DNA of 64,000 nt. Origin: Octopus vulgaris. Taxonomy: Eukaryota. Both the position numbers and the translations under genes were made by a program. Below, in pieces: positions 15,275 to 42,698 of the stretch. Each line of letters begins with the position of its first letter. Position 1 is the first letter of the stretch. The stretch is from assembly GCA_951406725.2 (NCBI GenBank), contig OX597821.1:95666001-95730000 (forward strand). The letters run 5' to 3'. A model generated the notes under the pieces. It ran no database searches and had not been told where the DNA came from. It was given only the letters and a program-made list of their open reading frames with translations.

Positions 15275-16370
15275 CAAAATAAACAACAAGAATGACTCTG
15301 GTAATTTGGTACAATTGTTTCGCACTACATCATTTTATTAAATGTTGTAAGTATTACAACAGATTTAAGATGCCGAGTACTCATCAGCCAATTATAGAGG
15401 TTTTCCATTAATACAAAAGTTTTCAAATCAAGTGGCAACATTATAGAGAAGGTAGATATACAGACAAAGATGTAGATTTAAATTTTAAGAACATATGATG
15501 TAGTGAAGTCCAACCAGTGACTGACCAAGCTATGGCTGTACCTAACTGCTATAAGGTTAGAAGTAATAAAGATTTTTTTAATAGTAGGAATGGGGTAAAG
15601 GAGGTTTCAGAATACCATATAAGGAATTCATGTTGAAGACAGTAGTTGCCACTAACAAAATGCCAATTACTACTATTTGGTGAGAGAAACTTGGTCAATG
15701 TCAAATGGTCATTAATCCCATTTACAGAGAGTGTAAATTAGAGAAAAAAAGGGAAAAAAACCTATCACTTATTATTATGAGTAGGCATAGTATTTTATAA
15801 CTGGGGGAAAGCCTTATTAATTTTAAAGCTAGATTAGATTTAGAAGAAATTCCAATTTCAAGTTTGCAGTGAAATTTTTTTAGTCATCTATGAAAGTTAA
15901 ATTGAAAGCTAGTATAGTATATTTCTTCTTATTATTATAAAAAGTTAAAAGTTTAAAAATATAGGAATACTCACAATTTTTATATAAATTATTTAAATGT
16001 TTGGGTTGTGGAATGTATACAAGATTCTCCCAACTCCAGACGATTATTCAACAGATTTATATTACTCTGATGTTTCAAAATTTCATAAGTTTCCATAGAA
16101 CAAAGTTGACAACCTTCCCTGCTATTTCTATAAGGTTTTGCCCTTCTAACTATATCCCATTTTAGGTTGAATACTATATTATTTGTTTTTAGTTCCCAAA
16201 TTTTGCTAGATTGTGTTGTGTAACCTGCCTTATGTTTGAGTCTAAAAGAGGAAAAATGATTCTTAAGACGTCTTTTAAGATCCACCGAACATCCGAAATA
16301 AAGAAAGCTATTGTTAGAAGTTATTATCGTGCATTTATAAATTACGTTTTCATTCGAATCTAAATTTTTG
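15275..16370 (-). mobile_element. 5'-truncated Penelope-like retroelement: GIY-YIG endonuclease (15989-~16370) plus 3' pLTR with hammerhead
   Basis: Peptide NVIYKC...LYFGCS..LKRRLKNHFSSF...CQLCSMETYEIL...LLNNRLELGESCIH is a GIY-YIG domain of the Penelope type with a C-terminal CxxC...CxH. Both ends sit in (TA)n. Confidence 0.85.
15303..15393 (-). ncRNA. Type-I hammerhead ribozyme motif with intact core and long stem II
   Basis: Minus strand: aattgg-CTGATGA-gtact...agtgc-GAAA-caattg-TA-ccaaatt. GUA cleavage triplet, palindromic CAATTG stem III. Lies ~600 nt downstream of a GIY-YIG ORF on the same strand. Confidence 0.8.
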
Positions 16371-17607
16371 CTATATATATATACATACACACATATATGC
16401 ATATGTATTATATATTATATATAATATATATATGCACACACACATATATATGTACATAGAAAGCCTTGTAGATCAAGGCTGACCCTGGCATTAAACATCA
16501 GTAACAACAAAGAGTAAAGATAAAATGTGAATTTCTTTGTGAAGAAGAGAAATAACAGGCTTTTTGGAATAAAAACAAAAATTCATTTTATTTTGGAATG
16601 TTATTTAATTAGCATTTCCCACATCCTTCAAATGTGAGAAGTGCAATTTACGAGCAACATTTCGTTGTTAGTTTATTATGATGAACTGAAAACTATGAAT
16701 ATGAGTAGGTGATGGGGTATAAGGGTATTTTATGTTAACTGGTACCAGTCATTACAACCGATCAGTCCAACGTTGAATTGATTCACAAATGTATTATATA
16801 TGCAGGCATTGCAGTCTGGTTATGAAGTTTACTTTACAATTACCTGGTGCTGAATTTGCTCCTATTGTGCAGCACATTGCACAAGTGTCACCTGTCTGCA
16901 CTGGATTGACCAATGCCTTATTAGTATTGAAGCCTATTGTAGGAATTTCAACCATGTTTCATGGTCTGCTACCACAACAGCTCCTTTATAGGATCCAGTT
17001 AGCTCTAGACATCATCAGGAGAAACCACGTCCGGTTTCGGCCTCTACTCCTCTACCGTTTTGACTGGCGGGGCCCCATCCTTTCGGAGGTGTCTTCAGCT
17101 CTGGTGTTGAGTGCATGTCTTCTTTCTCCTTCTTTCTTCTGTTCCCTGGCCTCTTCGATGTAGCATCAACGAGTGTCAGTGGGCGACTGACTGTCTTATC
17201 AAATATCCCTTTAAATACCTGCTGCTAGGCTCCAGCAAGCAGCCCCAGCAAGTTGTCATGTAACACTGTCTAAACTTTAACTGACCAATTGTGGGTTTAT
17301 ATATACTGTGATTATGTCTACCAGTGTAAATTGCTATGTCAAGTTATGTCCTCTTTTTGTCCAAAAACAATAACCTAACCTTTCAATAAACAGAGATCAA
17401 TAAAATAACTCAGTCTGAAACAGTTGAAGACAAAACTCTAGCATAATCAAAGTGGAATGACTGATACCAGTAATATATATATATATATTAATGGCTTTTG
17501 TAAACATTGATGAGAAATGAACTAGAGTTAACCAAGAAATATTTAGGTTGAGTTGCATCAGTGAATAACAAATTTGATGTTTTAAAGGGTAAAATGTGTT
17601 GTGTTTG

Positions 17608-22542: not shown

Positions 22543-22875
22543 TTATAATAAATTAGAGACAAAACCACTATTATGCAAATCAAACAAAGAAAGACTTAAG
22601 CCAATACATAAAATAATTTATATAAATTAAAATTTAACAAATGTATAACCACTACGATCGTTTCATGTCAGCACATCTTAGACATTCTTCAGGTGGTTTC
22701 TAAACCTTCTTAGCGAGTTATAAACTATGAAGTCATAACTTCATAGATGTGCTGACACGAAACGATTGTAGTGGTTATACATTTGTTAAATTTTAATTTA
22801 TATAAATTATTTTATGTATTGGCTTAAGTCGTCTTTCTTTGTTTGATTTGCATAATAGTGGTTTTGTCTCTAATT

Positions 22876-22880
<5 letters not shown>
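22543..22880. repeat. ~135-bp inverted repeat (Penelope-like pLTR fold-back) between (TA)n tracts
   Basis: 22543-22678 is nearly the reverse complement of 22745-22880. Confidence 0.85.
22647..22698 (-). ncRNA. Minimal type-I hammerhead ribozyme motif, apparently intact
   Basis: Minus strand: aaccac-CTGAAGA-atgtc(taagatgtgct)gacat-GAAA-cgatcg-TA-gtggtt. 6-bp stem I, 5-bp stem II, palindromic stem III, GUA triplet. Confidence 0.85.
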
Positions 22881-41257: not shown

Positions 41258-41333
41258 TATGATTTCTGTTCTTGGTTTGGTAGAAAACAGTTCAGTTGTT
41301 TTAGTAGCCAGTATGTTGATATCACCATTGATG
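41258..41333 (+). CDS. DUF389-family gene exon (MISVLGLVENSSVVLVASMLISPLM)
   Basis: tgcag| acceptor, ATG|gtaagt donor, 76 nt. GL..NS.V.LVASMLISPLM is the DUF389 N-terminal signature. Confidence 0.93.
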
Positions 41334-41415
41334 GTAAGTAAACCTTCATATATAACTGATATTTGAACAGCTTGTTAGGTTTACTAAAATAAAATATCTG
41401 TAGTTATTATTATAA

Positions 41416-41752
41416 ACAATTGCAGCGTGGAAGGTGTTTGTAAGCCATTTAAGAAACACACAAAAGCCATTCAATTACTTCAACATTTAAGTTTAATTTG
41501 CCAAAATATTTTCATCGCTAAAATCCGAGACCTGTTTACTGACAAAATCCGTGCTGCATCTGGATTTTTGTCAGTGAACAGGTCGCGGATTTTAGCGACG
41601 AAAATATTTTGACAAATTAAACTTAAATGTTGAAGTGAATCGAACGGCTTTTGTGTGTTTCTTAAATGGCTTACAAACACCTTCCACACTGCAATTGTTT
41701 TCGTTTCAGCACATGATCTCAGATCAAATCACTTGCTATGCGAGTACATCGC
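41416..41752. mobile_element. 337-bp fold-back non-autonomous retroelement (Penelope-derived) with 14-bp TSD
   Basis: ~140-bp inverted arms spanning 41414-41700. Direct repeat agttattattataa at 41402-41415 and 41753-41766. Each arm carries a hammerhead-like motif. Confidence 0.85.
41567..41616 (+). ncRNA. Minimal type-I hammerhead motif with swapped G3:C8 core
   Basis: tttgtca-GTGAACA-g-gtcgc(ggatttta)gcgac-GAAA-atat-TT-tgacaaa. 7-bp stem I, 5-bp stem II, palindromic ATAT loop. Confidence 0.65.
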
Positions 41753-42592
41753 AGTTATTATTATAATAACACAGTAATACCCAAATATTGAAGCATTTAA
41801 TTGATGGTTCTCACTTTGTCCATCCTAACTTTATTTTGTTTGCAGCTGTTGAAAGATTTTAAATTCACATGTTATGGTCAAGAAAGCAGGACTAAAAGGC
41901 CGTTTTATGTGACATTAAAATTTGTAAAGAAAAATTCGAATGTCTTCAACAGTAGATATATCAAAAATTCCATATCATCACAGTAAGATAAGATAGATAT
42001 CACAAAAACATAACAGTTTATCAGTTCTATGATTAATCAAAAACTGATGTTAACTTTATGTTATGGTTGCAAGCTTATCACATATATAATTGGATGCTTT
42101 GCAATATTTGTAGCTAGAAATAATATACCTTTTCAAAAACTTACATATCGCATAAAATGACCTTTCACTTAGTTAGAGTTCAGATTTTAGGTGGTAGGCC
42201 TATCATATCTGAGTGTATAAAAGATGCATATTAGATGATCCCAGGTTTTAGCATATTCAGGAAAATAAGTTTTTAGTGCATCAAAGTATGTAATATAGCC
42301 ACAACTTCACATATTGGATCTAGGGTGATTTTTTTTTGAGACTTTTTTTAATTAAAAATGTGCATTTTATATGCCATCAAATATAGTAATCTATCCTCCA
42401 GTTTAAAATTACCAAATGACCTTTGGGTGCCATTAGTGGAGGTCATTTGTGTTACAATTGCTCTTGGTCAGGTCGTCAGTCTGAGAATAACTTTCTTACC
42501 AATCTTGGAGGCTAGACTTTTCTTCCTTTATGCTTTGTGTATTGTAGGTTTATGTATATTTTAAAATTGTTTTTCTCCTATTCTTTTGTCAG

Positions 42593-42698
42593 GGCCCAAT
42601 ACTGGCAGGGACTTTTGGTATTGTGATCCAAAATTACTCTTTACGAAATCTTGGTCTGAGATCGGAATCAATTGGTCTTGCATTGTGCATTATCTGTG
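42593..42698 (+). CDS. DUF389-family gene exon (GPILAGTFGIVIQNYSLRNLGLRSESIGLALCIIC-G)
   Basis: gtcag| acceptor, G|gtcagt donor, 106 nt, phase 0/1. Continues SPLM-GPI. Confidence 0.93.

What the first reader, a model, noticed from the sequence alone, without database searches (positions are those of the whole stretch)
41402..41766. G3:C8-swapped hammerhead in a TSD-flanked fold-back retroelement, sense-oriented in a gene intron
Seen: a 337-bp insert bounded by a 14-bp direct repeat (agttattattataa), made of two ~140-bp inverted arms. The right arm reads tttgtca-GUGAACA-g-gtcgc/gcgac-GAAA-atat-UU-tgacaaa: the core CUGANGA is changed to GUGAACA, exactly the compensatory C3G/G8C swap. The left arm holds a decayed mirror copy (GUAAACA), so G3 and C8 predate the inversion. 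Established: the engineered C3G/G8C double mutant rescues hammerhead activity, and the natural core variant I know of is U3:A8. Inference: this may be a natural G3:C8 hammerhead family mobilised by target-primed reverse transcription. It sits ~230 nt downstream of a DUF389 exon on the sense strand, where the fold-back could mask it. Caveat: the cleavage triplet would be UUU, normally a poor site.
Basis: partly seen in the sequence, partly recalled or inferred. Interest (0 to 1): 0.8.

Follow-up and report, generated by a model that had tools for sequence, protein, structure and literature searches.

The report
Penelope hairpin with swapped hammerhead core
This intron insert is a short fold-back copy of the front end of a young Penelope-type jumping gene, and it carries a small "hammerhead" RNA motif with two paired core letters swapped (C-G to G-C) in thousands of copies; the motif likely still cuts RNA slowly in the parent element (untested), while this copy is predicted to be masked.

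Summary
Confirmed and extended. 29 of 30 ORF-bearing loci carry the same motif about 1 kb past the stop codon. The motif has the layout of Penelope minimal type I hammerheads. In one fixed 17-base frame the genome holds 7,725 G3:C8, 627 C3:G8, 280 G3·G8 and 42 C3·C8 matches. The C3:G8 form is a homologous sister family that also differs by paired changes in stems I and II, so the swap is real and compensated. Cleavage is untested. Against a need for it: only 0-3 of 95 copies begin near the cut site, and an unpaired G3·G8 sub-lineage also multiplied. In this copy the fold-back is predicted to mask the ribozyme. I found no natural G3:C8 hammerhead in the papers searched (one key paper was not available). 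This scan noted G3-C8 before in phages and in protist Penelope-like elements (unchecked). New variant of a known kind; interest 0.55.

The parts
41402..41415 (.). Left target-site duplication (14 bp)
41416..41561 (-). Inverted arm without tail: copy of pseudo-LTR positions about +1 to +147, read on the minus strand
41533..41539 (-). Mirror core of the left arm, G3 and C8 kept, G5 changed to A (private change: 27 of 29 left arms keep G5)
41562..41700 (+). Direct arm: pseudo-LTR, slightly 5'-truncated at the junction
41567..41616 (+). Minimal type I hammerhead motif: stem I 41567-41573 with 41610-41616; core GUGAACA 41574-41580 (G3 41574, C8 41579); extra G 41581; stem II 41582-41586 with 41595-41599; GAAA 41600-41603; palindromic stem III AAUAUU 41603-41608; U17 41609; predicted cut after 41609
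41666..41752 (+). First ~29 codons of the parent element's ORF (ATG at 41666; a stop by point change in this copy, read from the sequence)
41701..41752 (+). 52-bp Penelope-type tail, present on one arm only (40 of 45 hairpins have it on exactly one arm)
41753..41766 (.). Right target-site duplication (14 bp)
41258..41333 (+). Host exon upstream of the insert (DUF389 gene, by frame and splice sites; no Pfam hit alone)
42593..42698 (+). Host exon downstream of the insert, Pfam DUF389

Best explanation
The insert is a head-to-head duplicated 5' end (solo pseudo-LTR with tail) of a young Penelope-like retroelement, likely made by target-primed reverse transcription of uncut element RNA, and it carries a hammerhead-type motif whose C3:G8 core pair is swapped to G3:C8 across the family; the motif likely still cuts slowly in the parent RNA (untested) and is predicted to be masked in this copy. 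Steps. (1) Shown: the same sequence flanks an RT/GIY-YIG ORF, and its tail runs into the ORF start. (2) Inferred: the pseudo-LTR is an internal promoter (TATA-like box at -30, start at the A of AGATGC); the transcript has G3 at +23, the cut site after +58 and the ATG at +115. (3) Inferred from copy ends and from the published Anolis element: the enzyme nicks AT-rich DNA and starts copying inside the RNA at two places (+147 and about +206), runs back to the RNA 5' end and often adds one extra G (likely from the cap); the two products join head to head and give arms, a one-sided tail and a 10-14 bp duplication. (4) Shown: the swap is old in this lineage and comes with paired changes in stems I and II relative to a C3:G8 sister family; inferred: selection kept a working fold. 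(5) Inferred: cutting needs a dimer through the palindromic stem III or help from the element's protein, is slow, and is not needed for insertion. (6) Predicted: in the host pre-mRNA the left arm pairs with the right arm, so this copy is a 135-bp double-stranded stem and not a ribozyme. Odds: Penelope by-product 0.95; true hammerhead homologue with a compensated swap 0.9; measurable cleavage of the parent motif 0.6; cleavage of the host pre-mRNA by this copy 0.05.
For: Parent: 29 of 30 ORF loci carry the identical motif about 1 kb downstream of the stop; open frame of 1,025 aa in L121 with YVDD, CxxxCxxC and GIY-YIG (Pfam GIY-YIG E 1.8e-5; RVT_1 in 4 of 35 aligned relatives; profile hit to a solved RT, E 1e-4); tandem pseudo-LTR/ORF/pseudo-LTR in L124 with the tail continuing into the ORF. 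Target signature: 17 of 27 copies sit in (TA)n, and 9 of the other 10 have exact 10-14 bp duplications. Swap: 7,725 G3:C8, 627 C3:G8, 280 G3·G8 and 42 C3·C8 matches in one frame, controls 0-3. Sister homology outside the ribozyme: 7 of 47 rows at E<0.01 against 0 of 940 shuffled rows. Tree with positions 3 and 8 masked: the 15 C3:G8 rows form one side (100/100), and G3:C8 occurs in all three deep groups of the other side. Pairs in 30 chosen rows: 3:8 CG 15, GC 11, unpaired 4; stem II pair AU 15, GC 11, GU 3; first pair of stem I is G:C in the sister and A:U here. In the 30 rows U4, G5, A6, A9, G10.1 and G12-A15.1 are invariant while N7 and loop II vary. Copy ends: 40 of 95 arms begin at +1 to +4, 12 of the 18 at +1 have a G in front; TATA-like box at -30. 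Papers: extra base after A9, G10.1-C11.1 and palindromic stem III define Penelope minimal hammerheads (PMC4209133); C3G/G8C partly restores a Penelope hammerhead, which is protein-assisted and not needed for insertion in vitro (PMC11167929).
Against: No cleavage data. Only 0-3 of 95 arms begin near the predicted cut, so cut RNA leaves no clear trace. An unpaired G3·G8 form has 280 matches, about 7 times the C3·C8 background, and is nested among G3:C8 copies of a middle-aged subfamily: a predicted-dead core also multiplied. The covariation rests on few independent events (about one per pair between two families); the tool warns that related rows beat shuffles anyway, and the stem II change sits on CpG sites, where decay could mimic part of it. 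In the predicted fold G3 pairs with U17 and lengthens stem I, a possible inactive state. All relatives were found with patterns built from this motif, so the samples are biased. The start-site and cap reading has a rival: the DNA before AGATGC also looks like a splice acceptor. How the inversion forms is open: arms agree at a variable site in 31 of 33 hairpins (one template or one source locus), yet a few hairpins have arms of different subfamilies (L147, L190, L200).
Confidence: 0.68

Rival explanations
1. The motif descends from a hammerhead but no longer cuts; its stems are kept for another job (a binding site for the element's protein, or 5'-UTR/promoter structure), and G3:C8 arose through an unpaired stage without selection for catalysis.
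For: 280 G3·G8 matches; no pile-up of copy ends at the cut site; a cut after +58 would remove the cap from the element's own mRNA (inference); hammerhead mutants of the Anolis element insert normally in vitro (PMC11167929); Naiad elements thrive without hammerheads (PMC8557442).
Against: G3:C8 outnumbers G3·G8 27 to 1 and holds in three deep groups and in the youngest, ORF-intact family; the unpaired catalytic bases are invariant while N7 and loop II drift, the pattern expected from selection on catalysis (though part of that invariance was built into the search patterns).
Confidence: 0.24
2. This intronic copy acts on the DUF389 host gene, by cutting the pre-mRNA when the hairpin opens or as a double-stranded editing substrate near the 5' splice site.
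For: Sense orientation, 83 nt from the exon end, intact right-arm motif; long intronic stems are typical ADAR substrates (own knowledge).
Against: Pair probabilities of hammerhead stems II and I in the whole insert are about 1e-17 and 1e-37, against 0.996 and 0.93 in the parent context; the left arm is transcribed first; the copy is one of thousands and shows ordinary decay; no promoter part is included.
Confidence: 0.05
3. The insert is a MITE or fold-back DNA transposon and the hammerhead likeness is chance.
For: Long inverted arms, short length, high copy number.
Against: Variable-length duplications, a one-sided tail, a junction that differs from copy to copy, solo direct copies, an RT/GIY-YIG parent and a canonical-core sister family.
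Confidence: 0.02

Closest known systems
Minimal type I hammerheads in pseudo-LTRs of Penelope-like elements (Cervera and de la Pena 2014, PMC4209133)
   Same: Position in the pseudo-LTR, extra base between A9 and G10.1, G10.1-C11.1, tiny palindromic stem III, U17 common, thousands of dispersed copies, pairs on opposite strands.
   Different: 3:8 pair is G:C. In that paper's alignment of 56 motifs position 3 is C in 53, U in 3 and G in none (my count); the only covariation it reports is U3-A8.
Poseidon element of Anolis carolinensis, PAc (Frangieh et al. 2024, PMC11167929)
   Same: Pseudo-LTR overlaps the ORF start; two internal start points of reverse transcription give the tail; AT-rich targets; uncut RNA is the template.
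   Different: There C3G/G8C is an engineered rescue, here it is natural; here the motif lies wholly in the 5' UTR, the tail is 52 bp, and the protein has the CxxxCxxC linker of the Neptune/Nematis type.
Neptune/Nematis-type EN+ Penelope-like elements (Craig et al. 2021, PMC8557442; Arkhipova et al. 2013, PMC3846280)
   Same: C-terminal GIY-YIG, CX2-5CxxC linker, partial tandems, inverted 5'-truncated copies, optional tail, (TA)n bias, TATA-like box before an initiator-like start.
   Different: Clade not fixed (no labelled references here); tail longer than the usual 30-40 bp; ORF-free hairpins are very numerous.
Natural U3-A8 core variants (Perreault et al. 2011, PMC3088659)
   Same: Compensated change of the same tertiary Watson-Crick pair.
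   Different: Double transversion (purine and pyrimidine change places) instead of two transitions; animal retroelement instead of microbes and phages.
Non-LTR retrozymes (Li et al. 2026, bioRxiv 10.64898/2026.07.22.740005)
   Same: Non-coding, type I hammerhead, derived from Penelope pseudo-LTRs.
   Different: Retrozymes are head-to-tail tandems; this is a head-to-head hairpin made afresh from the parent (junctions differ between copies).

Membership tests
Penelope-like element (EN+), pseudo-LTR derivative | Same sequence flanks a single ORF with RT and C-terminal GIY-YIG | tested here: met
   29 of 30 ORF loci; GIY-YIG E 1.8e-5; RT by YVDD motif, RVT_1 in 4 of 35 relatives and a profile hit to a solved RT
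Penelope-like element (EN+), pseudo-LTR derivative | Partial tandem and inverted 5' copies; pseudo-LTR includes the ORF start | tested here: met
   L124 tandem; L121, L051, L052 inverted
Penelope-like element (EN+), pseudo-LTR derivative | Optional tail on one end | tested here: met
   Tail on exactly one arm in 40 of 45 hairpins; 52 bp against 30-40 bp in the papers
Penelope-like element (EN+), pseudo-LTR derivative | Variable-length target duplication at AT-rich sites | tested here: met
   10-14 bp in 9 of 10 non-microsatellite copies; 17 of 27 in (TA)n
Neptune or Nematis clade | CX2-5CxxC linker between RT and endonuclease | tested here: met
   CQSNCAVC in the ORF; definition from PMC8557442
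Neptune or Nematis clade | Placement in an RT tree with named references | not testable with these tools
   No labelled reference set was held
Hammerhead ribozyme (minimal type I) | U4 G5 A6, A9, G12 A13 A14, A15.1-U16.1, H17 | tested here: met
   Sequence; first eight positions invariant in 30 rows
Hammerhead ribozyme (minimal type I) | Literal C3 and G8 (CUGANGA) | tested here: not met
   G3 and C8 in 58 and 57 of 58 arms
Hammerhead ribozyme (minimal type I) | Watson-Crick pair between positions 3 and 8 | tested here: met
   8,352 paired against 322 unpaired matches in one frame
Hammerhead ribozyme (minimal type I) | Stems I and II with compensatory changes; palindromic stem III | tested here: met
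   few independent events
Hammerhead ribozyme (minimal type I) | Rfam covariance-model match | tested here: inconclusive
   No hit, but none for canonical sister loci either
Hammerhead ribozyme (minimal type I) | Site-specific self-cleavage | not testable with these tools
   Needs an assay; only assembled contigs, no raw reads, were offered
MITE / fold-back DNA transposon | Terminal inverted repeats at both ends, fixed duplication length, transposase partner | tested here: not met
   One-sided tail, 10-14 bp duplications, RT partner
Non-LTR retrozyme | Head-to-tail tandem units each with a hammerhead | tested here: not met
   Head-to-head hairpin here and in the 45 hairpins scored; tandem arrays elsewhere in the genome were not searched

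The most novel reading that the evidence does not exclude
An animal retroelement lineage has carried an active G3:C8 hammerhead for a long time and spread it to thousands of sites, next to its C3:G8 sister and an unpaired G3·G8 offshoot. This would be a natural series for how a catalytic tertiary base pair flips, with U17 perhaps kept because C17 would trap G3 in an inactive pair. CUGANGA-based surveys would then miss whole high-copy ribozyme families in animal genomes.
Probability: 0.45. Interest if true: 0.7.

Novelty: new variant of a known kind. Interest (0 to 1): 0.55.

Why it matters
The C3-G8 pair became a textbook proof of the active hammerhead fold through an engineered swap; the natural change in print that I found is U3-A8. 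Here the swap is fixed in a young, ORF-intact animal retroelement family with thousands of copies, and the same genome holds the C3:G8 sister and an unpaired form. That makes two open questions testable with natural sequences: what Penelope hammerheads are for, and whether a catalytic core pair can flip through an unpaired stage because cleavage is dispensable for single rounds of transposition. It also shows that pattern searches fixed on CUGANGA undercount these ribozymes. The copy in this intron is probably of no consequence itself.

Tried and rejected
Rfam scans: no hammerhead hit for the window stretch or for three canonical sister loci; only generic hairpin matches below gathering scores. 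Expression and RNA ends: no RNA holder listed on record; the one laying of reads used assembled contigs of four runs with four organism labels, which cannot show starts, ends or strand; no other letter was listed at positions 3 or 8 among the 40 rows shown, 7 rows hidden: weak, not used as evidence. A second hammerhead on the minus strand at the arm/tail border, suggested by a weak match to another repeat (E 0.017), was dropped: no core 5' half, and this stretch codes for the ORF start. Single-sequence search of solved structures gave nothing. The automatic triplet count was mis-registered for the G3:C8 rows and was redone. The two 'discordant' flags (L107, L267) are point changes, and the C3C8 label of L132 is a deletion; neither is used. 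For the tree most near-identical young loci were left out on purpose (62 rows kept). Two RNA templates per hairpin as the rule: not supported (31 of 33 concordant). The idea that U17 is co-adapted with G3 is weakened, since U17 is common in canonical Penelope hammerheads (24 of 56) and occurs in a few C3:G8 sister copies; kept only as a test. No empty-site check: no related genome is held. Papers not held: Lunse et al. 2017 (RNA Biol, about Penelope hammerhead variants) and Przybilski and Hammann 2007; either may already describe G3:C8. One supplementary file of PMC4209133 could not be searched, and figures are not held.

Full report
OBSERVATION. The window is G000:C8:95666001-95730000 of a 2.8-Gb genome, probably an octopus, since the best named relative of the parent protein is an Octopus protein at 58% identity. 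The 14-bp direct repeat, the 337-bp insert and the inverted arms are there. The right arm reads stem I TTTGTCA, core GTGAACA, an extra G, stem II GTCGC/GCGAC, GAAA, ATAT, TT, TGACAAA; alone it folds with stems I and II. The left arm keeps G3 and C8 but has lost G5. The last 52 bp (41701-41752) lie outside the arms. The host gene is a DUF389 gene on the + strand.

A FAMILY. The insert has 3,904 first-look candidates; the 40 scored places match at 92-100%. In 29 of them (58 arms) G3 is in 58, C8 in 57 and the four-T run in 57; these were chosen by likeness, so the count is biased. An exact 34-mer has 1,873 matches, control 0, and the 100 listed all read GTGAACA. 17 of 27 copies lie in (TA)n; 9 of the other 10 have exact duplications of 10-14 bp. 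The centre junction differs from copy to copy, so hairpins are made afresh and do not copy themselves as a unit.

THE PARENT. Two inverted copies 2.6 kb apart enclose an RT/GIY-YIG frame (L052). Its protein finds 114 places; the top 30 are 96-100% identical, and 29 of those 30 have the same motif about 1 kb behind the stop. L121 has a 1,025-aa open frame, cut at its 5' end, with Pfam GIY-YIG; RT support is the YVDD motif, RVT_1 in 4 of 35 aligned proteins and a profile hit to a solved RT. The CxxxCxxC linker points to the Neptune/Nematis type (PMC8557442, passages). L124 is a tandem pseudo-LTR/ORF/pseudo-LTR (its ORF is broken) in which the tail runs on into the ORF; the window's right arm and tail match it over 189 bases with 8 differences. 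So the insert is the element's 5' end, duplicated head to head. Inverted pseudo-LTRs with an optional tail, ORF overlap and a TATA/initiator pair are described for Penelope elements (PMC3846280, passages).

HOW IT WAS MADE (inferred). I took 95 arms from the first 100 of 3,570 matches to an anchor downstream of the cut site (5 fetched earlier were left out). 23 reach further upstream (a few only by chance extension of the alignment), 40 begin within 4 bases of AGATGC, 29 begin between there and the cut, and 3 begin within 6 bases of the anchor, none exactly at the cut. 12 of the 18 that begin at AGATGC have a G in front where the parent has T or C, behind varied letters (some of these Gs may come from the partner arm; 22 of 37). 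A TATA-like box starts 30 bases upstream. I read this as a capped transcript from an internal promoter, with G3 at +23, the cut after +58, ATG at +115 and copy ends at +147 and about +206; a splice acceptor at the same place is the rival. The Anolis element starts reverse transcription at two internal sites that define the tail, nicks AT-rich DNA on both strands and uses uncut RNA (PMC11167929, parts 1-2 of 4 read), which fits. The tail is on exactly one arm in 40 of 45 hairpins and the arms agree at a variable site in 31 of 33; a few have arms of two subfamilies. Whether the second arm comes from fold-back or from second priming is open.

IS THE SWAP REAL? In the frame GTCA-N3-TGA-N-N8-AGGTCRC there are 7,725 G3:C8, 627 C3:G8, 280 G3·G8 and 42 C3·C8 matches (controls 2, 1, 0, 3; arms, not elements). 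The frame undercounts the C3:G8 family, whose main form has G at 2.1: 456 further matches, 88 of the 100 listed C3:G8. That family is homologous beyond the ribozyme (7 of 47 rows at E<0.01 against 0 of 940 shuffled). It mostly reads G2.1:C1.1, GTCAC/GTGAC and UUC; the G3:C8 families read A2.1:U1.1, GTCGC/GCGAC and UUU. A pattern aimed at other loop II sequences gave 116 more G3:C8 matches, with N7 = A, C, G or T and loops of varied length. In a tree of 62 rows with positions 3 and 8 masked, the 15 C3:G8 rows form one side (100/100); G3:C8 is in all three deep groups of the other side, and G3·G8 is scattered among a middle-aged subfamily (the direction C3:G8 to G3:C8 is taken from the near-universal state, not from a rooted test). 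On 30 hand-picked rows the 3:8 pair is CG 15, GC 11, unpaired 4, and one stem II pair AU 15, GC 11, GU 3. These are few independent events, and part of the invariance is built into the patterns.

DOES IT CUT? Untested. For: catalytic bases are kept while N7 and loop II drift; the engineered swap partly rescues a Penelope hammerhead and hammerheads in general (PMC8495972, passage); U17 is in 24 of 56 Penelope-type motifs, an oyster one with UUU (PMC4209133 supplement, parts 1-2 of 3, my count). A G3-C8 variant was reported to be more active with G17 than with C17 (data not shown; PMC3884650, Discussion), so U17 may suit G3; this is a guess. Against: no copy ends at the cut site, 280 unpaired G3·G8 matches, low activity of this class even as dimers (PMC4209133, parts 1-2 of 4), and a predicted G3·U17 pair. 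I put activity at 0.6. In this intronic copy the hammerhead stems have pair probabilities near 1e-17 or less, against 0.93-1.0 in the parent context; it is predicted inert.

WHAT IS KNOWN. Natural covariation at 3:8 is given as U3-A8 in Perreault 2011 (passages and one section) and Cervera 2014; none of the 56 motifs in the latter's alignment begins with G. Full-text searches for hammerhead with G3-C8, G3C8 and C3G/G8C, and for octopus/Penelope/hammerhead listed only engineered cases in the passages I read. Lunse 2017 and Przybilski 2007 were not held and may bear on novelty. Also seen: a retrozyme preprint (part 1 of 5) and a review (passages). Earlier notes of this scan report G3-C8 in phage hammerheads and, with an added base, behind protist Penelope-like RTs (AI notes, not checked by me); none matched this sequence or genome.

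VERDICT. The structure is an ordinary Penelope by-product. The ribozyme core is a real, family-wide, compensated natural variant with a canonical sister in the same genome, and its activity is unshown. New variant of a known kind; interest 0.55.

Noticed in passing
window 22545-22880 (- strand core at 22692): A second fold-back repeat with a canonical CUGAAGA hammerhead (GUA triplet, palindromic stem III) at its centre; likely a hairpin of another Penelope family.
   Followed up: partly
window 15989-16414 (-) and 15387-15310 (-): GIY-YIG fragment of Penelope type (Pfam E 1.4e-4) with a CUGAUGA...GAAA hammerhead-like motif about 600 bases downstream.
   Followed up: partly
window 55141 (-): Third hit of the loose hammerhead scan (CUGAUGA core, AUA triplet); may be chance.
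   Followed up: no
L063:3964-4509 (+); same junction in L194 and L195: An intronless dCMP-deaminase frame (Pfam E 5e-28) is joined head to head to the 5' end of this pseudo-LTR; the same junction occurs twice about 6 kb apart. Looks like a host mRNA retrocopy made with this element.
   Followed up: partly
L065:2129-3815 (+): The 3' part of this family, with its G3:C8 motif, follows a GIY-YIG frame of a different Penelope family: nested insertion or template switch.
   Followed up: no
L147, L190, L200: Hairpins whose two arms come from different subfamilies (G8 against C8, or different loop II), which suggests two RNA templates or later conversion.
   Followed up: partly
L006 and L012: Hairpins with the tail on both arms.
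   Followed up: no
L121:797-1147: Hairpin with both arms complete and a perfectly palindromic junction, each arm starting with the extra G.
   Followed up: partly
L156, L158: A small related group with an unpaired C3·C8 core (three rows cluster 97/86), so part of the 42 C3·C8 matches may be a tiny sub-lineage and not only decay.
   Followed up: partly
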